Assembly: GCA_016199605.1 (NCBI GenBank)
Contig: JACQGJ010000414.1
Location: forward strand, 1-39,789
Length of the DNA: 39,789 nucleotides
Direction of reading: 5' to 3'
From: Armatimonadota bacterium
Lineage (GTDB): Bacteria > Armatimonadota > Abditibacteriia > CG2-30-59-28
Shown here: piece by piece, positions 14,056-36,748 of the stretch
How the letters are laid out: every line of letters begins with the position of its first letter
Position numbering within the stretch: the stretch's first letter is position 1
The notes under the pieces: generated by a model
What the model saw: the letters and a program-made list of their open reading frames with translations, nothing else
What the model was told of the DNA's origin: nothing
Database searches by the model: none
Made by a program: the position numbers and the translations under genes

Positions 14056-14276
14056 TCAGCAAAGGAGTTGCTCGGGATAAGTGAACGCGTCGGTCATGCA
14101 CATGCTGGCACGACACGAAGAATCAACTAAAGACCTATCTCTGGCCGGGGAGGATTGGGAGTCGTCGCCGTGATGCTTCCCTCGGCCACGATGGGATGTT
14201 CGCCTCCGTTGTGCGGTGCAGCAAAACCGGCAGGTCTCAGGCGACGAACAAGCTCGTGCCAGTTCACCGGTGGCAT
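14056..14276 (-). pseudogene. HicA-like toxin remnant (premature TAG plus frame change)
   Basis: A 49-codon ORF below the track cutoff runs from ATG 14276 to TAG 14127: MPPVNWHELVRRLRPAGFAAPHNGGEHPIVAEGSITATTPNPPRPEIGL*. It resembles the N-terminal two thirds of HicA-family toxins as I recall them. The expected tail seems to continue after the TAG (LILR..) and then in another frame (..RASMCMTDAFTYPEQLLC*, stop 14056). Confidence 0.4.
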
Positions 14277-16993: not shown

Positions 16994-18448
16994 CTAAACC
17001 TTCTGCAACTGTCGCATGAAGGCAGTTGCCCCCTCGAATTTCGTCTCCACAACAATCCCCGAACTCGTGATCTTGAACTGGCGAACTCCTGTATCGTGGT
17101 TGGACCCACGCAGCTTCAGGACGCAAGCGGTCTTGCGGATATGTTCCTGAATCCGTCGCAACCGCAGCGAGACGATCCCATCGAAAACCATCGATAGCTC
17201 GGATTCCACCAATTCCTGGTCCGGCGAGGCGCCGGCGATCTGGCTTGTGAAGACTGACGTAATCTGTCGCGCACTGAAAAGGTCGATAAGGGCGTAGACG
17301 TAGTCGCGGAATCTCTTCGGGTCGTTGATGGAAGGCTCAAGGTCCGTCAGGCTGTCAATCACCACTCGCTTGGGCTGCAGGTTCTCCAGCAGCTCCTTCA
17401 GTTCCCAGTACAGAGCATCGGCGTTTATCTTCACCGGAGACCGGCTGATGAAAGTCAGGAATCCTTCCTGAATGAGAGCCTCGAGGTCGATTCCAATCGA
17501 GCGCCCGGTCTTCAGCAGTTTCTCATAATCCTCTCGCAATGCAATGTAGAGAGCCTTTTCCCCCTGTTGAATGCCGTTGGCCAGGAACTGAAGGCTGAAG
17601 ATACTCTTGCCGGTCCCCGCGTCACCGGTAATGAGGGTGGCAAACCCATCCACCAGCCCGCCCTCCAACATGCGATCGAGTCCTGCAATCCCCGTTTGTG
17701 CTCGCATGACCTCGGGAACGAACCGAAGCTCCCCCTCGCTGTCGACGGGAGCCTTGGGGGCTGGTTCGGGACGAGGAAAAACCTTGAAGCCGCCCGTCCC
17801 AATCTCAACCGAGTGCTTGCCGGTCAGGAATCCCTGACCACGGGCCTTGAGGACCTCAAGGGTCCGCTGCCGATCCATCGTATTGATCAAGGCATAGGAG
17901 ATCCGGATGACGGTGTCGACGATGTACTGCTCAAAAGCCACCTGCTCGGCGGTTTCGTGACCGACCTCTTGGGTTAAAAGAGTCGTGAACCCCCCCTGTC
18001 GCAAGCTGTTCAGAAGACTGTTGAGCAGGTCGCGCAACTCAACACCCTCAGTCGTGATACGCTGGAAGTGAGTGACACTGTCTATCAGAATCCGCTCCAC
18101 CTTCATATCCGAGACCAGCCGCTGGATTATGCCGGTTCCCTCCTGGATTTGCTTGTAGAAAACGGCGGGAGAGGTCGAGATGACCCGGAGCTTGTTCTGG
18201 TCCTCGAGTTCTTTCAAGTCCCAGCCCAGGTTCAAGGCATCCTGGTACATCTGCTGGGGGAACTCCTCGAAGGTGATCACGAGCCCTGCCTCGTCGTGTC
18301 GCGCCGCTCCTTCGTAAAGGAACTGAAGCCCCAAGGTCGTCTTTCCCGCACCGGGTGTACCTTGAATCAAAATGGCGTGTCCGGCAGTAAAGCCTCCTCT
18401 GAGAATCGTGTCGAGACCAGCGGTACCGGTGCTAATCTGTCTGATCAT
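16994..18448 (-). CDS. KaiC-like double RecA-domain ATPase
   Basis: 484 aa with two Walker A sites (IQGTPGAGKTTLGLQF; ITGDAGTGKSIFSLQF) and the KaiC-family duplicated architecture. GAAGGAG lies 6 nt upstream of the ATG. Confidence 0.88.
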   Translation of the reverse strand: MIRQISTGTAGLDTILRGGFTAGHAILIQGTPGAGKTTLGLQFLYEGAARHDEAGLVITFEEFPQQMYQDALNLGWDLKELEDQNKLRVISTSPAVFYKQIQEGTGIIQRLVSDMKVERILIDSVTHFQRITTEGVELRDLLNSLLNSLRQGGFTTLLTQEVGHETAEQVAFEQYIVDTVIRISYALINTMDRQRTLEVLKARGQGFLTGKHSVEIGTGGFKVFPRPEPAPKAPVDSEGELRFVPEVMRAQTGIAGLDRMLEGGLVDGFATLITGDAGTGKSIFSLQFLANGIQQGEKALYIALREDYEKLLKTGRSIGIDLEALIQEGFLTFISRSPVKINADALYWELKELLENLQPKRVVIDSLTDLEPSINDPKRFRDYVYALIDLFSARQITSVFTSQIAGASPDQELVESELSMVFDGIVSLRLRRIQEHIRKTACVLKLRGSNHDTGVRQFKITSSGIVVETKFEGATAFMRQLQKV

Positions 18449-23045: not shown

Positions 23046-23600
23046 TCAGGGGGGTGGGTTCTCAGCGATCGTACCCGGACCTCTTCGCTCGGAGAGGTAA
23101 AGTGCGGATTCGGCGGCGTGAATGAAGTCTGTCGCAGATTCGACCTCGACATCCGGGAATTGCGCCATGCCGATGCAAACGTTGATCCGCACAGATTTCC
23201 CGTTGTTCGAGAAATGTTGGTTGTGGACTCGCTTCAGGATCTTCTCTGCGACAATCGGCGCATCTCGTAGATCGGTGTGGGTCAGCAACACGGCGAACGC
23301 GTCGATGGCATACCGGCTGACTAAATCGCTCTCGCGCAGAACCGCCAGGCAAGATTTGCCGACTTCCTCAAGGACCGCCTCGATCCAATCCTCGCTGCTC
23401 TCTGCCAACAGCTTGTCATAGCCGTGTAAGCACACGAGAAGGCACGAGATTCTGAGCTTGAAGCGACGGGAGCGACTCACTTCAGCGTAAAGGCGTTCAC
23501 CAAACTCGTGCAACGTCACAATCCGGCGTGGGTACGGCTGAGCCACCATGTCCGCGAGACTCGCCGTCTGGACAATCGCATCTTCCATGTCGGGTACCAT
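23046..23600 (-). CDS. degenerate GGDEF-domain protein (AIDAF in place of GGDEF; RxxD I-site retained)
   Basis: ..CLLVCLHGYDKL..AVLRESDLVSRYAIDAFAVLLTHTD..RINVCIGMAQFP..AAESALYLSERRG.. follows the GGDEF fold pattern. The start is uncertain: ATG 23600 sits just after GAGGAAGG, ATG 23588 is possible, and the longest ORF reaches 23681. Confidence 0.68.
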   Translation of the reverse strand: MVPDMEDAIVQTASLADMVAQPYPRRIVTLHEFGERLYAEVSRSRRFKLRISCLLVCLHGYDKLLAESSEDWIEAVLEEVGKSCLAVLRESDLVSRYAIDAFAVLLTHTDLRDAPIVAEKILKRVHNQHFSNNGKSVRINVCIGMAQFPDVEVESATDFIHAAESALYLSERRGPGTIAENPPP

Positions 23601-23761
23601 CCTTCCTCTGCTGGGACTCGATTTTAACAAATGTTGAGGGACATTACAACCCGACGGGCTGTATCGCAGCGGTCTCATCATGAGCTCACCGCCCCCGTGC
23701 GTCGGCCTCTCCGTGGCGCAAGAACTGTTTTCCCGGGACGATCAAGGAGCTTCAGAGATGT

Positions 23762-26196: not shown

Positions 26197-27387
26197 TCAT
26201 TTAATGACAACGATTGCCGTCTGCGGATTGAAGTCCTCCACCGAGACGAGATGCGGGTGCTGCAATCCTTGAGTCAACTTGCTGACCCGCTGCGGGACAT
26301 ACATCTCCAATTCGGGCAGTGTGACCACACCGTCTTGATTAGCATCTGCCGACCCCCTGAAGGCTTCCATCAGTGCAAGGGCAAACTGACTGTACCCCGC
26401 CCCGCCGTTCTCGGAGGACAACTCATCCCCTCTCGTCGCTGTGAGCAGGGCGATACCGGTATTTCTCATCGCTTGCGCGAGTTGCTCGCTGGTTGCCTGT
26501 CTGTCACCTAATCTCGCCCCTGCATGGCAGGCGTCGGCAAACAGGAGTTTCTTTGCGTAGATGCCGGTTAGCGTGTCGACCACTTGCTGCCACGCCACGC
26601 AAGTTCCCTCGATATCGTTGACCACCAATCCGCAAGGAGCGAGGTAGAGCTTGCCTTCCCTTTCCACTCCATGCGCGGAAAGGAATACCATGATCGTGTC
26701 CGAAGATTTCGCATCTTTGAGTTTGGCGAGGGCTTCCATGATGTTGGACTTGGTGGCTTTCGCGTCGGTCAGCACCATCGCGTGAACTCTGGTATACTGT
26801 TTGCCTTCCTGCTGTTGCATCAGAACGGCAAGCGCCTCTGCGTCTGTGGCAGCACAGGCAATGTCGTAGCGTAGGTTGCGGTGTTTGCTGATACCGACAC
26901 ACAGGAGGTGAAGATCGCTCGATATGGGCGTCACCTTCGCGTGGAGGACCTTGATCGTGACGTTGGTATCGTTGCCGTCGTCGTCACATACCGACGCACG
27001 GATCAGAATCTCCTTCTCCCCTTGGGGCAGTGGCACGTCAGTTACAAACTGGCGCCTAATCTTGTGTCCCGGGGGTACGTCCCTCGAGCTGGCAAGGATC
27101 GGCTTGGAGGGTGCGGTGATTGGCCTTGCGACGGACTCCGGGACAGGAATCCCGTTGACGAACAGTTTGAGCGCCTTTACACCTTTGTCGTCCGTCGCCT
27201 CAACCAGCACCCGCACCGTGCCTCCTGTGACCGCTTCATCGGGCTTGGGATTCAGAATCCTGCACGCGGGGGCAAGGCCACTTCCTTTTGGTTTCTCACC
27301 TTCTTGACCAAAGGCCGCCCGAAAAGCCCAAGCCAGCAGCACAACCACTGCCACCGATATCACCGCGAAAGTGCAATGATTCTTCAT
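26197..27387 (-). CDS. exported Ig-like + caspase-family (peptidase C14) protein
   Basis: GGAAGGAGGG lies 7 nt upstream of the ATG. Signal-like N-terminus (FAVISVAVVVLLAWAFRAAFG-QE). Ig-like segment (VRVLVEATDDKGVKALKLFVNG). Caspase fold with His in FLSAHG (codon 26673-26671) and Cys in FADACHAG (codon 26529-26527). EF-hand-type loop DANQDGVVTLPE. Confidence 0.85.
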   Translation of the reverse strand: MKNHCTFAVISVAVVVLLAWAFRAAFGQEGEKPKGSGLAPACRILNPKPDEAVTGGTVRVLVEATDDKGVKALKLFVNGIPVPESVARPITAPSKPILASSRDVPPGHKIRRQFVTDVPLPQGEKEILIRASVCDDDGNDTNVTIKVLHAKVTPISSDLHLLCVGISKHRNLRYDIACAATDAEALAVLMQQQEGKQYTRVHAMVLTDAKATKSNIMEALAKLKDAKSSDTIMVFLSAHGVEREGKLYLAPCGLVVNDIEGTCVAWQQVVDTLTGIYAKKLLFADACHAGARLGDRQATSEQLAQAMRNTGIALLTATRGDELSSENGGAGYSQFALALMEAFRGSADANQDGVVTLPELEMYVPQRVSKLTQGLQHPHLVSVEDFNPQTAIVVIK

Positions 27388-27449
27388 TAATGAACCCTCC
27401 TTCCTTTCATCACCTTGTCATTCCGTCATCTCTCATTCGATCATCTCGG

Positions 27450-30400
27450 TCAGTTCACCCTCACCAGCGTCGTCTCCGGGTTGAAGTCTCTGACGGAGAC
27501 GATGTGCGGGTGCTGAGCACCTTTTGTCACCTCGGTCACTCGCTTCGGTGCATAATTCAGGAGCTCGGACAACGTAACTCCGCCATCACTGTTGGTGTCA
27601 GCCTTGCCCCACAGGGCTTCCAGCAGCCCTACCGTGAAAGCCCCATGACCGAGCTCCTTCTCCTCGAAGGAAAACTCCTCCCCTTGCGACGAGGCAATGA
27701 GGGCGACGCCCGACCGCCGTGTCGCTTCCACCATCTGCTCACTCGTCGCCTGCCGCTCGCCTAACTTCGCTCCAGAATGACACGCATCGGCAAACAGCAA
27801 CTTCTTCGCGTAGATGTTCGACAGCGTCGCCAGCACTTCCTCCCACGGGAGGCAGGTGCTGGCGAGGGCGTCCGTGGAGACTTCGTGCGTCGCAAAGTAG
27901 AATTTGCCCCGCGCCTCGCCAGGAATGGATTTCCCGTTGGAGGAGACGGCAGTGCTCTGCACGCCGTGACCGGAGAGAAACACCATCACGGTGTCGGCTG
28001 GGGTGGCAGACTTCAACTCGCCCAGGGCGTCGCGGATATTCTCCTTGGTTGCTCTGTCGTCAGTCAAGAGGGTCGTATGGACCTTGGAGTATCGTTTCCC
28101 CTCCTGCGCTTTCATCACCTCGGCAATCGACTCCGCATCCTGAGCGGCGAAGGAGAGGTTGTAATCGTGATTGCGATATCTGTTCACGCCGACACAGAGA
28201 ACATACAGTTTGCCCAGCATCGGCTTCTCGTTCGGGCGGTGAATCGTGACCACTGCGTCCGACTTGTTCAGCTCGTCATCATAGACCACTGCTCGGATCA
28301 GACACTCCTTTTCACCCGGGGGTAGAGATAGATTGGCCGTGAAAGTGCGCATCACCTTATGGTTTTCCCGGATGTTCACCGCCCCATCGAGAATCGGTTT
28401 GATCTCTCCTCCCTCCGGCCTGGTGACAGATTCAGGCACGAGAACACCGTTCACGTACAGCTTCAATTCGGTCACCGTCTTGTCGTCCGTCGCCTCAACA
28501 CTCACCTTCACGGAATTGCCTGAGAGTTTTTCCTCCCCCTTTGGACTTACGAACCGGCACCCCGGCGCAATCCGCGCTAACGTTAGCGGCTCCTCCGTAA
28601 TCGCCTCCCCTCGCAACGCCTTTCGAGCAAGGTCGGGGCGACGGAAGGTCTCCTCAAACCGCCAGAAGGGCACAAGCTCATTGCCAAAGCGCCATTTGAA
28701 AAGGTTGTCCGCTCCTTCAGAGCAAGTGTAGTAACCCTCTGGGGTGAAAAACACCCAGAACCGCTGGGGTCCGTAAGGTCCAGCGGGCGCGGGTATCCCC
28801 ATGAGGGTACCCAGAAGACGGCGGCGTTCCACATCCCATACACCAAGGGCGCCGTCGGAGTTGCCAATGAGAACTCGCCGCCCGTCCGCAGAGAAGGAGA
28901 GCCAATTGGGGCGATCTCCCTGGACTTTGAGGGACGCCTTTTCCTCCCCGGTCTCAACATCCCAAAACCTGATGGTGTTGTCCCAGCTCGCAGTTGCGAC
29001 CATTCGACTTTTTGGTGAGAAACAGGCGGTGGCTGCCTGGTCCAACGGATTGCCAAGGGATCGCGTAGGTTCACCGGTGGCCGGGTCCCACAGCTTCGCG
29101 CCGCCAAGACCGGCGGTCAACACCCACCGCCCGTCCGGGGAGAAGCAACAGGTGGAATAGAGACCCACTATCGGGTCTCGCTCCAAGGTCTTGAGGAGTT
29201 CTCCCGTCTGCGCATTCCAGAGGTTAACCTCGCCGCCACGGACTCCTCCTTGTTGAAGCCCCGCGGAACTCACGAGACGTTGGCTGTCCGGCGAGAACGC
29301 CAAACCCGTGATCCGGTTTGTGTGACCGCGCAACGTATGCCGGAGCTGGCCCGTCGAGGTGTCCCACAGCCGGATCTCCAGCGTGTTGCGCCTCTCCTCG
29401 AAGTCTCCCCCCACCCCGCCGCACACGGCAGCGAAGGCGCGACCGTCGGGTGAGTAGGCAACCAATCCGACGTCGTGCCCGCATTCCCGGAAAGTACGCT
29501 CATGCTCGCCGGTTGCCGCATTCCAGAAAAGGACCTCTCCGTTGAAGTTGTCAGGCCGGTCGAGGAGCACAGAGCCTGCGATAGTCTTCCCATCCGGCGA
29601 AACGGTTACAGCGATGAGGCGCCTGTCTGGAGGCTGCACCAGTGGACACAGCCCCTGGCCGCGCACAACATCCCACACCAACCCCCCTCCGAGCGCGCTG
29701 CCTGTCACCAGGCGCTGCTCGGCCGGGAACAATGCGGGTGCGCACACTTCTGAGTTCTGGGCCTTGAACGCGGGACGGACGGAGCCCTCGCCAACCTCCC
29801 ATATCGCTCTCCCGGGGGCGGGACAAGAGAACGCCTCACCACCCCCGGTGGTCAGCCAGCGTCCGCGGGGTGAGAAGGCCAGGGTGCCTACGTCGCGTCG
29901 TGGACGAGCGACCTGTCCCAGCAACCTCCCGCTTTGGAGGTCCCAAAGGCGGACCACCCCGGACTTCTCGTGCTCACCCCTGAAAAGATGGCTCGCGGCC
30001 AGCAACCCCCCATCGCTGCTAACTGCCATCGAGAGGTGTGTAGTCTCCAGCGCTCCGGGATCCTCCGCCTGCAAGGAGTGAAGCTGGTTACCCGAAGCAG
30101 CGTCATAGATGCGAACAGCCGTCGAGAGGTATAGAGCAGCCATCAGGCGTGAGCCGTCGGGACTGACTGCAACCTGGGCGACGCCTTCTGAGATCGGCGT
30201 GCTCGGCCTCCGCAGATCGGCCGTGGTGACATCCCATACGCTTAACCCCCCTCCCTGCCGCCGACCGCGGGGCTGATTGCTGCACGCGACATAGAGCGTC
30301 TTCCCGTCGGGGGAGAAGGCAAGGCTGTCCACCGGCCCCGGATGGCCACTCAAAGACTTTAGAGGCTTCCATAGAGTCGCGTCCCACAGTGTGACCGTAG

Positions 30401-30890
30401 CGTCCCCGCCGCCACTGGCCAGGAGCCGTCCGTCAGGCGACCACGCCAAGGCGAAGATGCCAAAGGGAAAGTGGCGCTGTAGGGCATGGAGTTGATCACC
30501 TGTCCGGGGGTCCCATAGCCGGAGGGTGCTGTCCAACGGCCCTCCGGCACTGGCAAGGGTCTTTCCATCGGGCGAAAAGGCCACCGCCATCACCCGGTCG
30601 CGATGGCCCGCGAGCGTGCGAAGCAACTCGCCCGTCTCGCCAACCCACAGCTTTACCGACTGGTCCTTGCTCACACTCGCCAAAAGCCGACCATCGGGGG
30701 AGTAGGAAAGCGCGTTGACGACATCGCTGTGCCCCACCTGCAGGGCCAACTCAGGACGATCCTTGGGGAGGGAGTCAGGCGCATCGGCGGCATGGCTGGT
30801 CGGCCTGAGGAATGCAACCACCTCCAACGCAAACCACACAAGGAGAGACACTATCATCCGTCCAGCAGTCGTCCGGCAGGTGAGTGACAC
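27450..30890 (-). CDS. exported WD40 (14 blades) - Ig-like - caspase-family (peptidase C14) protein
   Basis: GTG 30890 has GGAGG 7 nt upstream, inside the 16-nt gap after the pseudopilin stop. N-terminal RMIVSLLVWFALEVVAFLRPTSHA-AD is signal-like. Fourteen units of ..SPDG..L.....D..++LWD.. occupy aa ~45-700 (nt ~28791-30758). An Ig-like segment covers aa ~775-890. In the C14 domain (aa ~894-1146), His is in FLSGHG (27968-27966) and Cys in FADACHSG (27782-27780). Confidence 0.9.
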   Translation of the reverse strand: MSLTCRTTAGRMIVSLLVWFALEVVAFLRPTSHAADAPDSLPKDRPELALQVGHSDVVNALSYSPDGRLLASVSKDQSVKLWVGETGELLRTLAGHRDRVMAVAFSPDGKTLASAGGPLDSTLRLWDPRTGDQLHALQRHFPFGIFALAWSPDGRLLASGGGDATVTLWDATLWKPLKSLSGHPGPVDSLAFSPDGKTLYVACSNQPRGRRQGGGLSVWDVTTADLRRPSTPISEGVAQVAVSPDGSRLMAALYLSTAVRIYDAASGNQLHSLQAEDPGALETTHLSMAVSSDGGLLAASHLFRGEHEKSGVVRLWDLQSGRLLGQVARPRRDVGTLAFSPRGRWLTTGGGEAFSCPAPGRAIWEVGEGSVRPAFKAQNSEVCAPALFPAEQRLVTGSALGGGLVWDVVRGQGLCPLVQPPDRRLIAVTVSPDGKTIAGSVLLDRPDNFNGEVLFWNAATGEHERTFRECGHDVGLVAYSPDGRAFAAVCGGVGGDFEERRNTLEIRLWDTSTGQLRHTLRGHTNRITGLAFSPDSQRLVSSAGLQQGGVRGGEVNLWNAQTGELLKTLERDPIVGLYSTCCFSPDGRWVLTAGLGGAKLWDPATGEPTRSLGNPLDQAATACFSPKSRMVATASWDNTIRFWDVETGEEKASLKVQGDRPNWLSFSADGRRVLIGNSDGALGVWDVERRRLLGTLMGIPAPAGPYGPQRFWVFFTPEGYYTCSEGADNLFKWRFGNELVPFWRFEETFRRPDLARKALRGEAITEEPLTLARIAPGCRFVSPKGEEKLSGNSVKVSVEATDDKTVTELKLYVNGVLVPESVTRPEGGEIKPILDGAVNIRENHKVMRTFTANLSLPPGEKECLIRAVVYDDELNKSDAVVTIHRPNEKPMLGKLYVLCVGVNRYRNHDYNLSFAAQDAESIAEVMKAQEGKRYSKVHTTLLTDDRATKENIRDALGELKSATPADTVMVFLSGHGVQSTAVSSNGKSIPGEARGKFYFATHEVSTDALASTCLPWEEVLATLSNIYAKKLLFADACHSGAKLGERQATSEQMVEATRRSGVALIASSQGEEFSFEEKELGHGAFTVGLLEALWGKADTNSDGGVTLSELLNYAPKRVTEVTKGAQHPHIVSVRDFNPETTLVRVN

Positions 30891-30906
30891 AGGTCAACCT
30901 CCACAC

Positions 30907-31593
30907 TTACCCAGAGCTGTCCCATCGGTGCCCAAGATCCGTTGGCTGCGAGGTCGGATCGTCATCCCGGTCGAACCACCCGGGATCATTGCTGACGCCT
31001 CGCCCCGTGAAGCCTCGATAGGCCTTCACATGTCCATCCACCCACAACGCATTGACCATCCGCACGCCGGGGTTGTTGTTCCAGAATCCCGCCCGGTTCA
31101 GATGCCAGTCATGCAACTCATGAATGATGATTTGTTCCGCGGGGCGACAGAAATCACCGTCCGTTGGTCCACCGTTGTTGTATAGGGAGTAGTAGTCAAT
31201 CACCGCGCGCCATGCGTAGGACACGAGGGCATTTGGATCGCTGACGTTGTGGGGGGCTGGATCGCTCGGGCACCAGTAGAGGAGGGCATTTTTCATGTAG
31301 GAGACGAGCAACGAGGGGTAGCCCCTCAATCTGATCCCGTAAGTAGGTTCCACGTACCAGGGCGTAGTGGTCGAGCCCGTCAGCAGCGAACTCGGGTAGA
31401 CGTCGTCGTAGTCGTCCACATACATGGCAAGGGCCAGCCCGATCTGCTTCATATTGGACAGGCACACGGCGGAGCGCGCCTTCTCTCGCGCCCTCGCGAA
31501 CACCGGGAACAGAATCGCCGCAAGAATCGCGATGATTGCGATTACCACCAGAAGCTCAATCAATGTGAAGCCGCCACGTCTCATTTGCCTCAT
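30907..31593 (-). CDS. prepilin-type N-terminal cleavage/methylation-domain pseudopilin (DUF1559-like)
   Basis: [40 protein letters not shown]... The C-terminal ..[11 protein letters not shown] keeps the DG but lacks the His of H-X9-DG. An alternative ATG at 31584 has better SD spacing. Confidence 0.85.
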
Positions 31594-31599
31594 CCCTTC

Positions 31600-32250
31600 T
31601 TATTGTCCGGTTACACTCCACATGCACTTGCCCGTCTTGCAGATCACGGCCCCGGGCTTCAGCCACTTGACGTGGCCATCGAAGAAGCAGTAGTTGGCGC
31701 CACGATTATGCCGCGTCGCCGCCTCAGCGCCTTCGCGGTCCAGACCATGTTCATTGGGTCCCCACCAAAGCCACGCGCCGTATTCGCCCTCAGAGAGCCA
31801 GATGCACTCGCTGGGGTACTCGATGAGGGTCTCGTTGTAGATCCAGAAGCTGGGGTCCGGCGGGCCCGGGTCTCCGTGTACAGCGTTCATACAGTAGCTC
31901 GAGCCCTGGTATTGGGTCGGGTCGGAACTGAGGTCGAAGCCGCCGCTGAAGGGGCTATCGGGCTTGTGGCTGGGGCACCGGAAGATCTGGGTGTTCTTGC
32001 AGTAGGGCAGCACTGCCGAACGCCAGCTATAGTTCATGGGTTCGGCACCGTACCCCCCAACGAGCAGGGCTTCATAGTCTTGGGCATAGGCCATCGTCGC
32101 CAACCCAAGTTGCTTGAGGTTGGAGAGGCAACTCGCTTGCCGTGCCTTCTCTCGCGCCCTCGCGAACACCGGGAACAGAATCGCCGCCAGGATCGCGATG
32201 ATCGCGATCACCACCAACAACTCGATCAACGTGAAACCGCGTGTACGCAT
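31600..32250 (-). CDS. prepilin-type pseudopilin, H-X9-DG family
   Basis: [49 protein letters not shown].. and C-terminal [20 protein letters not shown]. Confidence 0.87.
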
Positions 32251-32273
32251 GACAGTTCCTCACTTTCCGCGCG

Positions 32274-32972
32274 TTAGCCGCCCTCAATCGCCCACCAACA
32301 CTCCCCGCTCTGGCACTTGATTCCCCCGGCCTTGAGCCACTTCACGTGGCCGTCACAGAAGCCGAAGTTCCCGCCCTCGTTGTGCCGGGCCACGCCGTTG
32401 TTCGCCGTGGGAGCGGCTCCGAAGACAAAACCGTGGCTATTGTCCACGCCGGGGGGACCGAAAGAGTGATACCCGTCCGTCTCTCCGAGGAAGATGCACT
32501 GGGCCGGCATCTCGATGGCCCCGAGTGCCTGGCCGCCAGTGGGCGTCGGCGCTCCCGCCAGTTGGTGGACGATGCTCTGACCATACCCGGCGTTTGAGCC
32601 GTAATCCATGTCGCCTTCGCCAGGGCCTGAGCCCCTGCCGAAGATCGTCTGCGATGCCGGGAACCGCTTGCTGGGACAGAAGTAGATCCCGGTATTATTG
32701 ACATAGGGCAGGATGGCGATACGCCAGGTGTAATCTCCCCACGTCTGCGAACCGTACGGGGCGCCCGCGTCATACCACTCCATGGGCAGCAGTTCGTCAT
32801 AGTCCTGTGCATAGGACAGCACCGCGACCAGAAGCTGCTTCTCATTGGCCAGACAACTCGTCTGCCTTGCCTTCTCCCGCGCCTTGGCAAAGACGGGAAA
32901 GAGGATCGCCGCCAGAATGGCGATGATCGCGATCACCACCAGAAGCTCAATCAGCGTGAAGCCGCGCTTTAT
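32274..32972 (-). CDS. prepilin-type pseudopilin, H-X9-DG family, without a canonical start codon for its leader
   Basis: The track ORF starts at GTG 32939, inside the hydrophobic helix (MVIAIIAIL..). The same frame is open upstream to TGA 32990-32988 and encodes ..(I)[12 protein letters not shown]... The only start-like codon before the GFTLIE motif is ATA 32972-32970, 9 nt after AAGGAGG. C-terminal [19 protein letters not shown]. Confidence 0.65.
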
Positions 32973-33033
32973 CTTGTCATCCCTCCTTCAGGATTCAGCG
33001 ACACACCACGGCCGCCCGCCCGGCCGGCCGCCA

Positions 33034-33672
33034 TCAGTCCTCCGCTGCGGTGAACCAGCTCGTCTTGCCGACCATGGACGCCAGCTTGTACCACTTGGCA
33101 TGACCATCCACGAAGGCGTAGTTGCTGCCCTCATTGTGCCTGGAACTGATGGGGATGATCTGTTGGGCTGCGTCATAGAAGTACGGCTCATAGATCTGGA
33201 AGGGGACCCACTGCGGGTTCAGTTCGGCGATCATGACCGTCATCGTCGGCTCTGCCACGTCGCCCAGCCCAATCGTGGGGAGTTCAGGATGCAGGTAGCC
33301 ACACCCCATCCCGCTCACCTTGGGCCAGTACCAACTCCCGACGTTCCAGCCGTAGCTGAGCACCAGACCGCCTCGGGAGTCCGAGGGACAGCGGAACACG
33401 TGGGCGTTCTTTGCGTAGGGTTGCACCACGTCGGCCCAGGACTCCCAGGAGGATGGGCCCAACGCGCGCAGACAGACCCGGGGCAGCGTGTCCTCGTAGT
33501 CCTCGGCGTACATCAGCACCGCAAGGGTAACCTGCTTGACGTTGGACAAGCACACGGTCTGCCTTGCCTTCTCCCGCGCCCTCGCGAAGACAGGAAACAG
33601 AATCGCTGCAAGGATCGTGATGATTGCGATCACAATCAGCAATTCGATAAGCGTGAAACCCCTACGAGCCAT
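33034..33672 (-). CDS. prepilin-type pseudopilin, H-X9-DG family
   Basis: ATG 33672 (GGAGGA 7 nt upstream) gives [48 protein letters not shown]... C-terminal [19 protein letters not shown]. The track start, TTG 33690, is less likely. Confidence 0.87.
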
Positions 33673-34043
33673 CGGCCTTTCCTCCACCAAATCCGAGGAT
33701 TGAACCTGTAAAGGAATTCAGCGGCGGTCAACCGACCGTCCTGCCCGTTGGTGTCACCGACGGGATCAATCCTCGCAGTATACACGCTTTGAAGCAGTCT
33801 ACTTCAAATGACTGCAGTCGAATGGGACTGCTTCCCTGTGGTTGGCGATAGCAGGCTTGGCAATGGTGCGAGCCGTGGCAGAATTGATGGCATCCATCAG
33901 GGCTCTGCGACCCGATCAGTTTGAGACGTCGTGCAAGCGCCAGCTACTCGGATATATGACCATTTCGTGGCGTGATTATGCTGGATTCCAGTGAATCTGT
34001 CAAAAGGATATCTGAGGAGGAATTGCGTTAGTTCTGATTCTGA

Positions 34044-34072
34044 TTGCTTCCGGTTGGGAATGCTGATATACT
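34044..34072 (+). promoter_or_regulatory. sigma70-like promoter candidate for the cyclase-STAND gene
   Basis: TTGCTT (34044-34049), a 17-nt spacer, then TATACT (34067-34072), within an AT-richer intergenic region about 55 nt upstream of ATG 34127. Confidence 0.3.
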
Positions 34073-34126
34073 TGCGGCGCGTTCGGGGGATTGGGTTGCG
34101 ATCCTCCTTGATGAGTCGAGTCCGCC

Positions 34127-36748
34127 ATGTCCTCAAGCATTATCACAATGGTCTTTTCCGACCTGGTCAGCAGCACCTCGATCAAGATGCAGCTTCCGGG
34201 CGGGGACATCTCCGAACGAAATCGCGTCTACTTCGACACGATCCTCATGCCTCACCGCCGGCGAGTGCAATCCAGCCTGGAGCGATATGGCGGGAGAGTG
34301 GTGAAGACGGAGGGGGATGCCTTTTTCATTGTGTTCGGCGACGCGGTGCGAGCGGCGCAGTGGTCCATCGCTCTTCACCTCGACCATGCGGAGTACCCCA
34401 TCGACACGCCAGTGGGGCCGCTGCAAGCGCGGATTGGCATGCACACCGGAGCGCCTCTGGCAGATCAGGATGACTTCATTGGACACGATGTGGACTATGC
34501 CTCACGCGTCGGAGACCTGGCCAACGGCGGGCAAGTCGTGCTGTCGGAAGCCACCGCCGCGCTGGCGCGGGCGGCCCACATCTCAGGCGTTGAACTCCAC
34601 CCCCACGGCGAGAGAGACCTAAAAGGCGTCGGACGCACTCCGATCTTCGAGCTTCTCTACGCGGGCAGGCAGCCTCAGCCTCTGAGGGAACCTCTTCTGA
34701 CTCCCACCAATCTTCCCATCTCGGACACGCGCTTCATTGACCGGGAGATCGAGGTCTCTGAGGGTTGCGATCTGCTGCGGGACCCGGGAACGCGTCTGCT
34801 CACCCTTACGGGCTTTGCCGGTCTTGGGAAGACCCGCGTCGCCCACCAGATTGCGAAGCGCTGCGTAGACAGGTTCGCGGATGAGTTCCCGGAGGGTGTG
34901 TGGTGGGTGGAATTGGAGGACCTACAGGAAAACAGCGAGGTGATTCCTCGCATTGCCACGGACCTCGGAATCGATCTGCGGCCGCAACCTCCCGTGGCCG
35001 ACCAGGTTCTCGCTTTTCTCCGCGAGCGACAGATGGTGCTGGTTCTTGATAACTCAGAGCAGATTCCGAACGTTGCTGAGGTCGTCAAACGCTTACTTAC
35101 GGCGGCGCCCTCCCTCAAGTGTGTCATCACTTCACGACGCACCTTGGGCCTCCAGACGGAGCATGTCCTGGAGTTGCAGCCCTTGTCTTCCACTCATGCG
35201 GTGGAGCTGTTTGTGAGCCGAGCCCGAGCGCGCTCCAGCGATTTCGGGATGACGCCGGACAACGCTGTGGATATTCAGCAGCTTTGCGCCGTTCTCGAGG
35301 AAGTGCCGCTTGCCATTGAGCTGGCGGCTTCTCGCATCGTGGTGATGGAGGCCGGACAGATGCTGCAGCGCATGGACCGGCAAGTTGAGTTTCTCAAGTC
35401 CCGAGAGCCCGACCTGCGCCCACGACAGCGGGCCCTGCGCGCAGCCATCGACTGGTCTTACGAGTTGTTGACGGAGGACGACAAGAAGCTCTTGGCTGAG
35501 GTGTCGGTTTTTGCGGGAGGGTTCACGTTGGAGGATGCTGAGTCGGTATGCGACACCTTCGACGTTCTGGAGGGAGTTGAGGAGTTACGCCTTCAATCGC
35601 TCCTGCGGGCCGGTACGGATCCGGTGACACGGCGTCGCAGGTTCTCCATGCTGGCTGCGGTTCGCGCCTATGCCGAGGACAGACTGCGCGTGCGCCCGGA
35701 GCAGGAAAGAGCCGTGCGGCTTCGCCATGCGGAGCACTACCTTTCCATCGCGCAGGATTGCCTCTATAAGCTCCGCACCTCCGAAGAAGCAGCCGCGTCG
35801 GAGAAGATGGAGACGGAGCTTGCGAATCTCCGGGCAGCGTTTGAGTGGATCCAGAAGCCGGAGCATCACAGGCTGTGCGCGGAATTGTCCCTCGCTGTAG
35901 GCGCCTTCCTTCAACGGCGTGGTTTCACGCTGGAAGCCATGGCGTATTTCCACACAGGTCTTGATTCCGCTCGCGCGCTGGGACAGGAGGGGACCGTGTT
36001 GGCCGCGAAGATTCAGCGCGAACACGCGGGGCTGCACCACGATCGGTTTGAGTGGGCCGACGCAAGGAGAGACGCGATTGAAGCTCTTAACATCTTTGAG
36101 CAGTTGCGCCAACCGGAGGGGATCGCCAGCGCGTACAACCTCTTGGGGCTCATCGCAAAAGGCGAGACGGATTTCAGCGAGGCTCGACGCAGCTTCTCGG
36201 CGGCGATGAAACAATTCGAGGCCTGTGATGACAAGACCGGCGCTGCGATTGTCTACAACAACCTTGGTCTCGTGGAATACACGGACACGCAGGGCGATAA
36301 GGGGAAAGCTCTCCGCTGCTGGCAGGAGTCCTTGCGTCTATCCCGTGAGCAGGGCAACCACCGCGGCGTGGCAGAAGCGCTAATCAATCTGGGAGTCCTG
36401 GCTCAGGACCAGAAGCGCACCGACGAAGCGTACCATTACTACGCCGAAGCCCTCGGGGTCGAGAGGAAGCTCCGGCATTCTTTCGGTGTGGGGCGCGCTC
36501 TCAACAACCTTGCAGAGATCGCCGAGGCGAGGGGCGAGCTTCGCAAGGCACATCGCCTGTATGCCGCTGCGGCCTGTCTGTTTGACAGAGTGGCATCCCC
36601 CTATGAATGTCACGCGAGGACGAGACTGGTCCACGTCCGGGAGGCGCTTGGACTTACCGAAGAACCCGCAGGTTCTGTCCACCAACCCCTCAAAGACAAG
36701 ACCCTCGACGAGTTGCTTGAATGGGCGCAAGAAGAGAGCGCCGCCTGA
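34127..36748 (+). CDS. class III adenylate/guanylate cyclase domain - NB-ARC-type STAND ATPase - TPR repeat protein
   Basis: 873 aa. The cyclase domain covers aa ~4-178 (ITMVFSDLVSST; VVKTEGDAFFIVFGD; RIGMHTG; GHDVDYASRV). The NB-ARC-like module has Walker A GFAGLGKT (34811-34834), Walker B MVLVLDNSE (35033-35059), ITSRR, LQPLS..AVELF, EEVPLAIELAA and ..WSYELL..LLAEVSVFAGGFTLEDAE. TPR-like repeats cover aa ~520-840 (..AYNLLGLIA.., ..VYNNLGLVE.., ..ALINLGVLA.., ..ALNNLAEIA..). Confidence 0.87.
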   Translation: MSSSIITMVFSDLVSSTSIKMQLPGGDISERNRVYFDTILMPHRRRVQSSLERYGGRVVKTEGDAFFIVFGDAVRAAQWSIALHLDHAEYPIDTPVGPLQARIGMHTGAPLADQDDFIGHDVDYASRVGDLANGGQVVLSEATAALARAAHISGVELHPHGERDLKGVGRTPIFELLYAGRQPQPLREPLLTPTNLPISDTRFIDREIEVSEGCDLLRDPGTRLLTLTGFAGLGKTRVAHQIAKRCVDRFADEFPEGVWWVELEDLQENSEVIPRIATDLGIDLRPQPPVADQVLAFLRERQMVLVLDNSEQIPNVAEVVKRLLTAAPSLKCVITSRRTLGLQTEHVLELQPLSSTHAVELFVSRARARSSDFGMTPDNAVDIQQLCAVLEEVPLAIELAASRIVVMEAGQMLQRMDRQVEFLKSREPDLRPRQRALRAAIDWSYELLTEDDKKLLAEVSVFAGGFTLEDAESVCDTFDVLEGVEELRLQSLLRAGTDPVTRRRRFSMLAAVRAYAEDRLRVRPEQERAVRLRHAEHYLSIAQDCLYKLRTSEEAAASEKMETELANLRAAFEWIQKPEHHRLCAELSLAVGAFLQRRGFTLEAMAYFHTGLDSARALGQEGTVLAAKIQREHAGLHHDRFEWADARRDAIEALNIFEQLRQPEGIASAYNLLGLIAKGETDFSEARRSFSAAMKQFEACDDKTGAAIVYNNLGLVEYTDTQGDKGKALRCWQESLRLSREQGNHRGVAEALINLGVLAQDQKRTDEAYHYYAEALGVERKLRHSFGVGRALNNLAEIAEARGELRKAHRLYAAAACLFDRVASPYECHARTRLVHVREALGLTEEPAGSVHQPLKDKTLDELLEWAQEESAA

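What the first reader, a model, noticed from the sequence alone, without database searches (positions are those of the whole stretch)
34127..36748. Nucleotide cyclase sits where the effector domain sits in an Avs-like STAND (cyclase - NB-ARC - TPR)
The domain order is N-terminal enzymatic module, central STAND NTPase, C-terminal TPR array. This is the layout of antiviral STAND (Avs-type) and related conflict NTPases, but here the N-terminal module is a class III cyclase that begins at residue ~4 with no other sensor. Cyclase-ATPase fusions are known in actinobacteria, for example the mycobacterial Rv0386-type proteins with a LuxR HTH, and their biology is largely unresolved. This protein has no HTH. 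That makes a ligand-triggered, oligomerisation-activated second-messenger generator conceivable, which would be analogous in logic to cyclase-based defence signalling (Pycsar, CBASS). I saw no cNMP-binding protein in the window, so the receiver is unknown.
Basis: partly seen in the sequence, partly recalled or inferred. Interest (0 to 1): 0.7.

Follow-up and report, generated by a model that had tools for sequence, protein, structure and literature searches.

The report
Cyclase-tipped STAND switch beside caspase genes
This gene encodes a real cyclase–ATPase–TPR signalling protein from a large, already catalogued but untested bacterial family; what is new is that its unusual cyclase subtype consistently travels with exported caspase-like proteases.

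Summary
ORF 34127-36748 (+) encodes 873 aa: class III cyclase (5-171), NB-ARC NTPase (216-446), winged helix, TPR array (about 524-868). AlphaFold mean pLDDT is 91.5.

The cyclase does sit in an output slot that close NOD-TPR relatives fill with TIR, Ser/Thr kinase, SARP or XRE-HTH domains. The NTPase is not Avs-like. Its closest solved relative is AfsR (E 5e-25), then plant NLRs. No PADLOC Avs or Pycsar model matches. The rest of the contig is housekeeping, with no cNMP-binding gene.

The architecture is not new. More than 5,800 relatives exist, and JGI labels them "predicted ATPase/class 3 adenylate cyclase". cNMP cyclases on STAND and bNACHT proteins are already listed in the literature.

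Two things were not noticed before:
- The cyclase belongs to a small sub-family of about 90 clusters, here called cycD. Its transition-state Asn is always Asp. It is fused to NB-ARC, NACHT, CHASE2, kinase or CHAT modules.
- CHAT or caspase genes were seen near cyclase-STAND genes in 8 of 10 loci with readable flanks. Here they lie in a divergent operon whose Ig-caspase module is 49% identical to the one next to the closest homologue.

Most likely mechanism (inferred): ligand- and ATP-driven oligomerisation dimerises the cyclase and releases cAMP. The biological role is unresolved.

The parts
34127..36748 (+). Whole gene: 873-aa cyclase - NB-ARC - winged helix - TPR protein. NCBI name: 'MAG: tetratricopeptide repeat protein [Armatimonadetes bacterium]'.
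   Evidence: ORF list and translation. Pfam. Exact match P0001 in the protein collection. AF2 mean pLDDT 91.5.
34139..34639 (+). Class III nucleotide cyclase domain (residues 5-171) of the 'cycD' sub-family. Metal Asp D12 and D64, substrate Lys K60 and Asp D116, Arg R127 and Lys K166 are present. The transition-state Asn is replaced by Asp D123 (codon 34493-34495). There is a 9-residue insertion after the first strand/helix (residues about 20-32).
   Evidence: Pfam Guanylate_cyc 44.4 bits. Alignment to Ma1120. Column counts. Signature DKDDDRK in all sub-family members. D123/Y124 conserved in at least 90% of 48 representatives. Codons checked. Foldseek to Ma1120, TM 0.92.
34772..35464 (+). NB-ARC (AP-ATPase) nucleotide-binding oligomerisation domain, residues 216-446. 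Walker A is GFAGLGKT (K235). Walker B is LVLDN-SE (D308, N309, E311). Sensor-1 is R337. The GxP motif is VPLAIELAA (P394).
   Evidence: Pfam NB-ARC 42.1 bits. These residues are invariant in 50 homologues. The NOD profile's best solved relative is AfsR, E 5e-25.
35465..35695 (+). Winged-helix / linker part of the NOD (residues about 447-523). Its counterpart in homologues is called HTH_77 by Pfam.
   Evidence: AF2 secondary structure: helices 450-489, beta hairpin 494-507, helix 510-521. PF25872 HTH_77 is recorded on homologues. The AfsR alignment runs through this region.
35696..36730 (+). C-terminal TPR array (residues about 524-868, about 19 helices). Presumed ligand sensor.
   Evidence: Pfam TPR_12 x3 and TPR_MalT 645-844. 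AF2 helices 524-868. Foldseek to PH0952 STAND-TPR over 714 columns.
33691..34126 (.). 436-nt divergent intergenic region between the cyclase-STAND gene and the minus-strand pseudopilin/caspase gene run. Holds sigma-70-like hexamers in both directions.
   Evidence: Sequence. Promoter-like matches at 34003-33975 (-), 11 of 12, and 33857-33884 (+), 9 of 12; these are consensus matches only. No Rfam family. No CRP-like site.
27450..30890 (-). Probable partner gene: exported WD40 (two propellers) - Ig (Big_7-like) - caspase (Peptidase_C14) protein, 1146 aa. His/Cys dyad motifs SGHG and DACHSG are present.
   Evidence: Pfam WD40 and Peptidase_C14 at 897-1132. PADLOC generic 'caspase' model. C-terminal 400 aa are 48% identical (E 2e-96) to the caspase gene adjacent to the closest cyclase-STAND homologue. 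Hydrophobic N-terminus.
26197..27387 (-). Probable partner gene: exported Ig (Big_7) - caspase protein, 396 aa. Dyad motifs SAHG and DACHAG are present.
   Evidence: Pfam Big_7 40-91 and Peptidase_C14 162-382. 49% identity (E 1e-106) to the C-terminus of the L001 neighbour. Signal-peptide-like N-terminus.
30907..33690 (-). Four tandem DUF1559 / prepilin N-methylation (pseudopilin-like) genes. They lie between the cyclase-STAND gene and the caspase genes, on the same strand as the caspases, with tight spacing (gaps 94, 23, 6 and 16 nt). They are context only, because they are not conserved next to homologues.
   Evidence: Pfam SBP_bac_10 (DUF1559) plus N_methyl. Coordinates. Absent from L001, L002, L003, L084 and L086.

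Best explanation
The gene encodes a cytoplasmic STAND-type molecular switch whose output is a class III nucleotide cyclase.

Inferred mechanism:
1. At rest the AfsR-like NB-ARC module holds ADP, and the C-terminal TPR array keeps the protein monomeric.
2. An unknown ligand binds the TPR array and allows ADP/ATP exchange and oligomerisation of the NB-ARC module.
3. Oligomerisation brings the N-terminal cyclase domains together.
4. Class III cyclases build their two active sites across a homodimer interface, so proximity turns the enzyme on.
5. The product is most likely 3',5'-cAMP, because the substrate-selecting pair is the adenine-type Lys60/Asp116.

The cyclase is a distinct sub-family (cycD). 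Its transition-state Asn is always Asp, so rate or chemistry may differ from textbook enzymes.

The gene belongs to a recurrent module with exported TPR/WD40-caspase or TPR-CHAT proteases. Here these are the divergently transcribed genes at 26197-30890. The signal it generates is therefore probably tied to that protease system rather than to general catabolite control.

What is shown: the domains, intact motifs, fold, family placement, N-terminal module swapping and the protease linkage.

What is inferred: the ligand, oligomerisation, cyclase activity and product, the receiver, and the biological role. That role could be regulation of the exported protease system, or a conflict / programmed-death-type response as proposed for such proteins by Kaur et al. 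2020 and 2021.
For: Domains and fold:
- Pfam domains above threshold.
- High-confidence AF2 model.
- Structural matches to Ma1120 cyclase, PH0952 STAND-TPR, Apaf-1, CED-4 and plant NLRs.

Catalytic motifs:
- ATPase motifs (K235, D308/N309/E311, R337, P394) are invariant in 50 homologues.
- Cyclase residues D12, K60, D64, D116, R127 and K166 are kept. D123 replaces Asn in every sub-family member across Armatimonadota, Planctomycetota and Cyanobacteria. This argues for selection on a working site.

Family placement:
- The NOD's closest solved relative is AfsR (E 5e-25), then plant NLRs.
- The N-terminal slot is exchangeable: TIR_2, Pkinase, SARP and SARP+cyclase on NOD-TPR bodies 40-44% identical, and XRE-HTH on 20 of the 120 best NOD relatives. 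TIR, kinase and dimeric DNA-binding outputs are commonly switched on by proximity or dimerisation (established knowledge).
- A crude NJ tree interleaves these forms.
- The cycD module also sits on NACHT-HEAT-NCC-H-NCAB1 proteins (best hit 63% identical), and on CHASE2, kinase and CHAT or trypsin fusions.

Protease linkage:
- A TPR-Ig-caspase gene lies 20 nt downstream of P0002. A TPR-CHAT gene lies 33 nt downstream of P0006. TPR-CHAT genes flank P0007 on both sides. Further cases are P0005, P0101, P0011 and P0013.
- The window's two caspases share a 48-49% identical Ig-caspase module with the P0002 neighbour. The cyclase-STAND pair shows the same divergence, 50%.
Against: - No experiment exists for any member of this NB-ARC cyclase family that I could find.
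- Asp at the Asn position could lower or change activity. Asn substitutions strongly reduce activity in mammalian cyclases (own knowledge, not tested here).
- No cNMP-binding receiver was found in the window.
- The partner proteases all begin with signal-peptide-like segments, whereas the cyclase-STAND does not. A direct cytoplasmic cNMP-to-protease or apoptosome-like contact is therefore hard to picture.
- In this window the partners are not adjacent. They are 3.2 kb away on the other strand, behind four pseudopilin-like genes.
- Two of ten loci showed no protease in the flank (L085, L091).
- The control for the linkage is weak: different taxa and home-made HMMs.
Confidence: 0.55

Rival explanations
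1. Avs-like antiviral sensor. The TPR array recognises a phage protein, the STAND oligomerises, and the cyclase emits a cNMP alarm. That alarm activates an unlinked effector, in Pycsar/CBASS fashion.
For: - The layout is that of Avs/NLR-type proteins.
- The same NOD-TPR clade carries TIR domains.
- The same cycD cyclase (63% identical) tops NACHT-HEAT-NCC-H-NCAB1 proteins. Kibby et al. show that bacterial NACHT proteins defend against phage, and they list cNMP cyclases among the effector-position domains.
- One related pair (L090) is flanked by transposase, integrase and resolvase genes.
Against: - No PADLOC Avs, Pycsar or other defence model matches.
- The NOD profile finds AfsR and plant NLRs, with no Avs entry among the listed hits, which run to E about 0.1.
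- The neighbourhood is housekeeping, GC content is even, and no Pfam hit to an integrase or transposase was found.
- No cNMP-binding effector lies nearby.
- Many NOD relatives are XRE or SARP transcription factors.
- The matches in the phage collection are only three unannotated gut contigs at about 29-33% identity.
Confidence: 0.15
2. Ordinary environmental or metabolic cAMP signalling. On this reading the protein is a cytoplasmic sensor cyclase like the many multidomain class III cyclases of soil bacteria (the mycobacterial Rv0386 type, the rhizobial Cya paralogues). It would feed a global CRP-type regulon, and its position near the caspase genes would be coincidental.
For: - The family is very large and spread across free-living phyla.
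- JGI's routine annotation is 'predicted ATPase/class 3 adenylate cyclase'.
- Relatives sit on megaplasmids and chromids of Streptomyces, Rhizobium, Sinorhizobium and Rhodococcus.
- The Lys/Asp pair predicts cAMP.
- The flanks are housekeeping.
- The NOD is AfsR-like.
Against: - The protease linkage recurs in 8 of 10 loci. It includes direct CHAT-cyclase fusions and a co-diverged Ig-caspase module.
- The N-terminal slot swaps with TIR.
- Flanks are not conserved between homologues, and the closest relative is only 50% identical. That pattern fits an accessory gene.
Confidence: 0.18
3. The cyclase-like domain is not an enzyme. With Asp in place of the transition-state Asn, it would serve as a nucleotide-binding or dimerisation module that only reports or stabilises the oligomeric state. 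Kaur et al. suggested this for inactive cyclase domains in vWA-MoxR systems.
For: - The Asn-to-Asp change sits at a residue important for catalysis.
- Some sub-family members have lost further residues: P0008 reads DEDGDRK and P0005 reads DDDNDRK.
- P0076 carries a degenerate cyclase-like N-terminus in front of a TIR domain.
- Kaur et al. describe catalytically inactive cNMP cyclase domains in conflict systems.
Against: - Both metal-binding Asp, the Lys/Asp substrate pair, Arg and the C-terminal Lys are strictly kept in nearly all members across three phyla at only 50-60% identity. That conservation is expected for a working active site.
- The Asp is itself invariant rather than drifting.
Confidence: 0.12

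Closest known systems
AfsR (Streptomyces SARP - NB-ARC - TPR global regulator; PDB 8k60 / 8jke)
   Same: Closest solved relative of the NOD plus winged helix: profile E 5e-25, 91 bits over about 330 residues, and 2e-42 with the full-length profile. Both have a TPR C-terminus and the Walker B 'LDN' motif. The NCBIfam AfsR model aligns to residues 182-808. A hybrid SARP-cyclase-NB-ARC-TPR protein exists (P0021).
   Different: AfsR's output is a SARP DNA-binding domain (Trans_reg_C + BTAD). Here it is a cyclase, with no DNA-binding domain. The NCBIfam score of 66.8 is far below the equivalog cut-off of 1430.
Mycobacterial Rv0386 / Rv1358 / Rv2488c ('mclx') cyclase - AAA/NB-ARC - LuxR proteins
   Same: N-terminal class III cyclase followed by a STAND-like ATPase (PMC4452763). 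Biology also unresolved.
   Different: They end in a LuxR HTH, and none is found here. From my own knowledge their ATPase is of the AAA_16/MalT-like type and Rv0386 uses Gln/Asn instead of Lys/Asp.
Bacterial NACHT (bNACHT) proteins with an N-terminal cNMP cyclase (Kibby et al.; Kaur et al. 2020 and 2021 catalogues)
   Same: The same cycD cyclase sub-family (63% identical, P0121) sits at the N-terminus of NACHT-HEAT-NCC-H-NCAB1 proteins. The literature lists cNMP cyclases among nucleotide-signal-generating effector-position domains of NACHT proteins. It also describes cyclases displacing caspases in conflict systems.
   Different: The NTPase clade differs (NACHT against NB-ARC), and so does the sensor (HEAT + NCC-H/NCAB1 against TPR). 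I found no experiment on a cyclase-bearing member.
Avs / AVAST antiviral STAND proteins
   Same: Three-part logic: N-terminal enzymatic module, central STAND NTPase, C-terminal TPR-like sensor. Activation is presumed to be by oligomerisation.
   Different: No PADLOC Avs model matches. No Avs structure appears among the listed sequence-profile or Foldseek hits. No defence-island context. Avs effectors act directly (nucleases, Sir2, TIR, proteases; own knowledge), whereas a cyclase needs a receiver.
Pycsar (and CBASS) cyclic-nucleotide defence signalling
   Same: The idea of a nucleotide cyclase that emits a second messenger on sensing.
   Different: Pycsar cyclases are stand-alone and are paired in an operon with an effector that carries a cNMP-binding domain (own knowledge). 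No PADLOC hit to any Pycsar or CBASS model, and no cNMP-binding gene in the window. CBASS uses a different enzyme fold (CD-NTase).
PH0952 (Pyrococcus STAND with TPR sensor, PDB 6mfv) and Ma1120 (minimal mycobacterial adenylyl cyclase, PDB 4wp9)
   Same: These are the best structural matches for the NOD-TPR body (E 9e-15, 714 columns) and for the cyclase domain (TM 0.92, rmsd about 2 A) respectively. Ma1120 is also the best sequence match among solved structures.
   Different: PH0952 has no cyclase. Ma1120 has no STAND, and it has the canonical Asn where this protein has Asp123 (alignment).

Membership tests
Class III nucleotide cyclase (Pfam Guanylate_cyc) | Profile match above the curated threshold, and the cyclase fold | tested here: met
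   44.4 bits against a cut-off of 21.9, residues 5-171. Foldseek to Ma1120, TM 0.92.
Class III nucleotide cyclase (Pfam Guanylate_cyc) | Two metal-binding Asp, the substrate-selecting pair (Lys/Asp for ATP), and the transition-state Arg | tested here: met
   D12, D64, K60, D116, R127 and K166 are present.
Class III nucleotide cyclase (Pfam Guanylate_cyc) | Transition-state Asn (the N of the 'VNxAAR' motif) | tested here: not met
   Asp123 ('VDYASR'). Asn is found in 42 of 50 wider-family members, and Asp in all sub-family members.
Class III nucleotide cyclase (Pfam Guanylate_cyc) | Cyclic nucleotide synthesis | not testable with these tools
   Needs an enzyme assay.
STAND NTPase, NB-ARC / AP-ATPase clade | NB-ARC profile match. 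Walker A, Walker B, sensor-1 Arg and GxP motif. Winged helix after the NTPase. | tested here: met
   42.1 bits against 23.5. K235, D308, R337 and P394 are invariant in homologues. The profile finds AfsR and plant NLRs. A winged helix is present in the AF2 model.
Avs / AVAST antiviral STAND | Match to an Avs1-5 family model | tested here: not met
   PADLOC returned only a generic TPR model and a marginal REase hit. No Avs chain appears among the PDB profile or Foldseek hits listed.
Avs / AVAST antiviral STAND | Defence-island or mobile-element context | tested here: not met
   Neighbours are housekeeping genes, pseudopilin-like genes and caspase genes. GC content is even.
Avs / AVAST antiviral STAND | Sensor binds a conserved phage protein; protects against phage | not testable with these tools
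   Needs phage challenge and binding assays.
AfsR / SARP regulators | N-terminal SARP DNA-binding module (Trans_reg_C + BTAD) | tested here: not met
   No such domain in Pfam. The NCBIfam AfsR equivalog scores 66.8 against a cut-off of 1430.
AfsR / SARP regulators | AfsR-type NB-ARC + TPR body | tested here: met
   E 5e-25 to 8k60 over NOD + WH. The NCBIfam alignment spans residues 182-808.
Rv0386-type cyclase-ATPase-LuxR ('mclx') | C-terminal LuxR-type HTH | tested here: not met
   No HTH in Pfam at E <= 0.1. The C-terminus is TPR to the end.
Rv0386-type cyclase-ATPase-LuxR ('mclx') | Same ATPase clade | not tested
Pycsar | PycC-type cyclase plus an adjacent effector with a cNMP-binding domain | tested here: not met
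   No PADLOC match to any Pycsar model. No cNMP_binding domain in any of the 41 window ORFs scanned.
cycD cyclase sub-family (defined here) | Signature D-K-D-D-D-R-K with 'VDYAAR', the insertion 'KxxLPGxDIxxRN', and 'GGRVVKTEGD' | tested here: met
   The query shows all three. About 90 cluster representatives reach E <= 1e-30.
Cyclase-STAND + exported repeat-caspase/CHAT module (proposed here) | A caspase- or CHAT-encoding gene with TPR/WD40 repeats and a signal peptide next to the cyclase-STAND gene | tested here: inconclusive
   Present in the window, but 3.2-6.7 kb away, on the opposite strand, behind four other genes. The Ig-caspase module is 48-49% identical to the adjacent partner of the closest homologue. 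The linkage is seen in 8 of 10 loci, and the background control is weak.

The most novel reading that the evidence does not exclude
The cyclase-STAND and the exported repeat-Ig-caspase/CHAT proteases may form a conserved two-compartment system. A cytoplasmic, STAND-gated cycD cyclase, with its Asp-for-Asn active site, would produce a cyclic nucleotide that controls the production, export or activation of extracytoplasmic caspase-like proteases; or the control could run the other way. That would be a cNMP-caspase axis with no characterised precedent in bacteria. It could be a programmed-death or kin/conflict response of the kind predicted by Kaur et al. for multicellular-habit bacteria.
Probability: 0.2. 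Interest if true: 0.75.

Novelty: new member of a known kind. Interest (0 to 1): 0.4.

Why it matters
The cyclase - STAND - TPR layout is common and long catalogued, so the finding as stated does not open new ground. It still touches an open gap. I found no experimental study of a STAND protein whose output is a nucleotide cyclase, although thousands exist and computational surveys place such cyclases in immunity-like systems.

This locus, with its relatives, offers a compact test case:
- A small cytoplasmic protein with intact ATPase motifs.
- A sharply defined cyclase sub-family with one conserved unusual catalytic residue (Asp123).
- A recurrent, co-diverging partner: an exported Ig-caspase or TPR-CHAT protease.

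Two results would be informative. Showing what nucleotide it makes, and whether that signal governs the caspase-like proteases, would tell us whether bacterial NLR-like switches can work through diffusible messengers rather than direct killing. It would also tell us what bacterial caspase homologues in these phyla are for.

Tried and rejected
- CRP-type site (TGTGA-N6-TCACA, up to 2 mismatches). 10 matches in the window against 14.7 expected, and none in the 436-nt divergent intergenic region. This gives no support for a simple cAMP-CRP link to the neighbouring operon. Short repeats in that region are weak.
- Rfam and tRNA scans of the window found nothing.
- Reverse test from the caspase side. 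The search for homologous proteins with the Ig-caspase returned only itself, although a 49%-identical protein exists in L001. This is a limit of the word index. Whether Ig-caspase homologues usually neighbour cyclase-STANDs could therefore not be tested.
- The first local CHAT HMM was too narrow and missed the CHAT domains that Pfam saw. It was rebuilt with more diverse seeds. The local HMM counts are lower bounds.
- The metagenome scan returned mostly cyclase-only matches and only two more STAND-type loci, both cut or without a protease in the flank.
- The L091 neighbour (a 1120-aa WD40 protein directly upstream of P0057) was suspected to carry a caspase. No caspase or CHAT was detected, only a signal peptide and WD40 repeats.
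- Kaur et al. 'System 4' (EACC1 + caspase/cyclase) was considered as a match and rejected. It requires a 5' EACC1 single-TM gene, which is not seen here.
- Literature. I found no paper on NB-ARC cyclase fusions beyond catalogues. The body text of Shenoy et al. 2004 is not held. The 2026 'Pucsar' preprint contains the terms AP-ATPase, STAND and TPR but could not be opened. DefensePredictor and the Avs5 paper mention only unrelated cyclases.
- Phage collection: three unannotated human-gut 'Bacteriophage sp.' contigs at 29-33% identity. I judged this uninformative.
- The NJ tree of the NOD uses identity distances without support values. I use it only as an indication of interleaving, not as a phylogeny.

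Full report
**1. The observation**

The window holds an ORF at 34127-36748 (+) of 873 codons. It starts at the first ATG after an in-frame stop. Pfam gives three domains above their curated thresholds:
- Guanylate_cyc, residues 5-171, 44.4 bits, E 1.8e-11.
- NB-ARC, residues 216-446, 42.1 bits.
- TPR_12, three stretches, 66 bits, with a MalT-like TPR match at 645-844.

There is no HTH, membrane segment or extra sensor. An AlphaFold2 model built on 50 homologues is confident (mean pLDDT 91.5, pTM 0.77). Foldseek matches its parts as follows:
- The N-terminus matches Ma1120 adenylyl cyclase (TM 0.92).
- The body matches the archaeal STAND-TPR protein PH0952 (E 9e-15 over 714 columns).
- The NOD matches Apaf-1, CED-4 and plant NLRs.

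The protein collection holds the same sequence as an NCBI record named 'MAG: tetratricopeptide repeat protein [Armatimonadetes bacterium]'. Its longest listed contig is 39,789 bases, the length of this window.

**2. Are the two enzymes intact?**

The ATPase motifs are present and invariant across 50 homologues (codons checked):
- Walker A, GFAGLGKT (K235).
- Walker B, LVLDNSE (D308, N309, E311).
- Sensor-1, R337.
- The GxP motif, VPLAIELAA (P394).

The cyclase keeps both metal-binding aspartates (D12, D64), the adenine-type substrate pair (K60, D116), the transition-state arginine (R127) and K166. The transition-state asparagine is an aspartate, D123: 'HDVDYASR' against 'RNVAMAAR' in Ma1120.

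This is not drift:
- In the wider family 42 of 50 members have Asn. The query's closest relatives all have Asp. They also share a 9-residue insertion ('KxQLPGxDIxxRN') and 'GGRVVKTEGD'.
- An exhaustive phmmer search with the domain against 1.84 billion representatives gives 23,180 cyclases at E <= 1e-3 but only 90 at E <= 1e-30.
- In 48 of those representatives, D123 and Y124 are conserved in at least 90%.
- The signature D-K-D-D-D-R-K holds in Armatimonadota, Planctomycetota (Isosphaeraceae) and many cyanobacteria at only 50-60% identity.

I call this sub-family cycD. Conservation of the whole site argues for a working enzyme with an altered residue. Activity and product remain inferred.

**3. 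Where the NTPase belongs**

PADLOC finds no Avs, Pycsar or other defence model. The hits are a generic TPR model and a marginal type II restriction-enzyme hit (E 0.021). NCBIfam aligns the AfsR model to residues 182-808, far below its cut-off.

A profile of the NOD plus winged helix (16 sequences) was searched against all PDB sequences. It finds:
- AfsR first (8k60/8jke, E 5e-25, 91 bits).
- Then plant NLRs: Roq1 1e-14, RPP1 3e-11, MLA13, Sr35, ZAR1.
- Then PH0952 (4e-6).
- No Avs, MalT or Apaf-1 entry among the 60 hits listed, which run to E about 0.1 (95 matched at E <= 10).

The NOD is therefore an AP-ATPase/NB-ARC of the AfsR-like branch. The label 'Avs-like' holds for layout only.

**4. 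The N-terminal slot is exchangeable**

Bodies 40-44% identical to the query's NOD-TPR carry other N-terminal domains:
- TIR_2 (P0091; P0076, where it follows a degenerate cyclase-like segment).
- Pkinase (P0082, P0084).
- SARP+cyclase (P0021).

P0090, which JGI names a SARP-family activator, is another candidate, but the Pfam scan did not confirm a SARP domain in it.

Among the 120 best relatives of the NOD alone, 38 carry a cyclase, 20 an XRE-type HTH, one a SARP and one or two a kinase. A crude NJ tree interleaves these forms and puts the query's NOD next to TIR-bearing ones (no support values).

It also shows that the clade is a general output-swapping switch in which many members are transcription factors. 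Dimeric DNA binders, class III cyclases, TIR domains and kinases are all commonly switched on by proximity or dimerisation (established knowledge). This fits a shared mechanism.

**5. The cyclase module travels widely**

Pfam on 48 cycD representatives gives these partners:
- CHASE2 in 20.
- Pkinase in 13 (cycD-kinase-X).
- CHAT in 12 (CHAT-cycD-CHASE2).
- NB-ARC in 6.
- NACHT in 5. These have the form cycD-NACHT-HEAT-NCC-H-NCAB1 and include the best hit of all, P0121, at 63% identity.
- Trypsin_2-cycD-CHASE2 in one.

The genome scan found the cycD-CHASE2 form in Coleofasciculus, Acaryochloris, Altericista, Scytolyngbya and others. The published catalogues already describe this:
- cNMP cyclases are named as signal-generating domains that displace caspases in conflict systems of multicellular-habit bacteria (Kaur et al. 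2020, PMC7159879; Kaur et al. 2021, PMC8195603).
- They are listed among effector-position domains of bacterial NACHT proteins (Kibby et al.).
- The mycobacterial cyclase-AAA/NB-ARC-LuxR genes are also known (PMC4452763).

From my own knowledge, cyclase-AP-ATPase fusions were already drawn in the early STAND surveys (Koonin and Aravind 2002; Leipe et al. 2004). I could not open those papers here.

**6.

The contig is otherwise ordinary. It encodes:
- TldD; O-antigen ligase and glycosyltransferases; PilM/N and a secretin fragment.
- Acetate kinase and phosphotransacetylase; an HMGL-like enzyme; KaiC.
- BacA; an epimerase; a GGDEF protein; an MFS transporter.
- A GATase1-like protein and a fucosidase fragment.

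GC content is flat at about 0.60. No cNMP-binding protein was found.

Immediately upstream, across a 436-nt divergent intergenic region, runs a tightly spaced minus-strand series:
- Four DUF1559/prepilin-like genes.
- A WD40-Ig-caspase gene (27450-30890).
- An Ig-caspase gene (26197-27387).

The closest homologues show the same kind of partner:

| Homologue (locus) | Partner gene | Position |
|---|---|---|
| P0002 (L001) | TPR-Big_7-Peptidase_C14, 1356 aa | 20 nt downstream |
| P0006 (L002) | TPR-CHAT | 33 nt downstream |
| P0007 (L003, an Abditibacteriaceae MAG) | TPR-CHAT | both sides |
| P0005 (L084) | PDZ-TPR-CHAT | 2 kb downstream |
| P0101 (L086, Isosphaeraceae) | kinase-FGE-sulfatase gene, then WD40 genes with caspase-like regions | downstream |
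| P0013 (L090, canonical-Asn cyclase) | TPR-CHAT | 69 nt downstream |
| P0011 (L088, canonical-Asn cyclase) | CHAT gene abutting a second cyclase-AAA_16-TPR gene | about 6 kb upstream |

Two loci showed none (L085, L091). That makes 8 of 10 loci with readable flanks.

In cyanobacteria the link is either a direct CHAT-cycD-CHASE2 fusion or a CHAT neighbour.

The strongest single item is a sequence comparison. Both window caspases share a 370-400-residue Ig-caspase module that is 48-49% identical (E 1e-106 and 2e-96) to the C-terminus of the P0002 neighbour. The cyclase-STAND pair shows the same divergence, 50%. The two genes therefore appear to have been inherited together. The His and Cys dyad motifs are present.

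All nine partner proteases I inspected begin with a signal-peptide-like hydrophobic segment. The cyclase-STANDs do not. The partner is therefore probably exported.

**7. How it most likely works**

Shown:
- An intact STAND ATPase of the AfsR-like NB-ARC type.
- A TPR sensor-like array.
- A near-canonical cyclase at an exchangeable output position.
- A recurrent exported-protease partner.

Inferred:
- TPR ligand binding and ATP loading oligomerise the NOD.
- The cyclase domains dimerise and form active sites.
- cAMP is made (Lys60/Asp116).
- An unlinked receiver reads it.

The partner is extracytoplasmic, so a direct apoptosome-like recruitment of the caspase is unlikely. Regulatory coupling, in which the cNMP controls expression or export of the protease system, or a shared role in one response, is more plausible. 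I found no CRP-like site in the shared promoter region. I cannot decide between a regulatory role and a conflict or death-type role.

My confidence in each reading:

| Reading | Confidence |
|---|---|
| STAND-gated cyclase mechanism with a protease-linked role | 0.55 |
| Avs-like antiphage sensor | 0.15 |
| Unrelated general cAMP signalling | 0.18 |
| Non-catalytic domain | 0.12 |

**8. Verdict**

This is a real, well-formed member of a large, known and experimentally untouched family. It is not an Avs and not in a defence island, and the architecture itself is not new. Two features go beyond the finding and are worth a bench test: the conserved Asp-for-Asn cycD sub-family, and its linkage to exported caspase or CHAT proteases. 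Novelty: new member of a known kind. Interest: 0.4.

Noticed in passing
window 26197-33690 (-): A tightly spaced minus-strand run: four tandem DUF1559 + prepilin N-methylation (pseudopilin-like) genes, then a WD40-Ig-caspase gene and an Ig-caspase gene (gaps 94, 23, 6, 16 and 62 nt). All have hydrophobic N-termini. An apparent operon of pseudopilin-like proteins with exported caspases is unusual in itself.
   Followed up: partly
window 34493-34495 (Asp123); loci L006-L024, L094-L111: A cyclase sub-family ('cycD', about 90 clusters at 50% identity) in which the transition-state Asn is always Asp ('VDYAAR'). It also has a 9-residue insertion. It occurs in Armatimonadota, Planctomycetota and Cyanobacteria, fused to NB-ARC, NACHT, CHASE2, kinase, CHAT or trypsin modules.
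   Followed up: yes
L003 6705-6881 (same as L004 6693-6869): A 76-aa ORF encodes only the first 55 or so residues of a second cycD domain (47% identical to the query). It lies directly upstream of a TPR-CHAT gene and looks like a remnant of module shuffling between cyclase and protease genes.
   Followed up: no
L024 10001-16915 (Altericista sp. CCNU0014 chromosome): A cycD-CHASE2 gene followed by a DUF928 gene and then a 1270-aa protein with an AfsR-like NOD (local HMM) and WD40 repeats. The cyclase and the STAND are separate neighbouring genes here rather than a fusion.
   Followed up: partly
L086 4104-7067: In the Isosphaeraceae locus, a 987-aa NADH-dehydrogenase/Fe-S-type protein with a precomputed Pfam cNMP_binding hit lies 1 kb upstream of the cycD-STAND gene. 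This is the only cNMP-binding domain seen near any family member. Downstream lie a kinase-FGE-sulfatase gene and two large WD40 genes with caspase-like regions.
   Followed up: no
P0076 (1079 aa), residues 1-170 and 238-350: A relative with a degenerate cyclase-like N-terminal segment followed by TIR_2, then the NB-ARC-TPR body. It carries two stacked output modules, one apparently decayed.
   Followed up: no
L090 7369-16784: A canonical-Asn cyclase-STAND plus an adjacent TPR-CHAT gene, flanked by rve integrase, resolvase and DDE transposase genes. This suggests the two-gene pair can move as a unit.
   Followed up: no
window 11462-13258 (+) versus 11492-12262 (-) and 12374-13279 (-): The longest ORF here (598 aa, + strand) has no Pfam match. 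The two opposite-strand ORFs match Uma2 (putative restriction endonuclease fold) and phosphotransacetylase. The long + ORF is probably a shadow ORF.
   Followed up: partly
window 14056-14484 (-), 16994-18448 (-), 23046-23681 (-): A UPF0150 (HicB-like) small protein. A KaiC homologue with a weak PADLOC 'mad8' hit (E 1e-11). A stand-alone GGDEF protein, which would make a second nucleotide-messenger enzyme on the contig.
   Followed up: no
phage collection hits H16-H18 (MT838110.1, MT836681.1, MT835530.1): Three unannotated human-gut 'Bacteriophage sp.' contigs encode relatives (29-33% identity). One of them covers residues 1-788. Whether these are true phage genomes is unknown.
   Followed up: no
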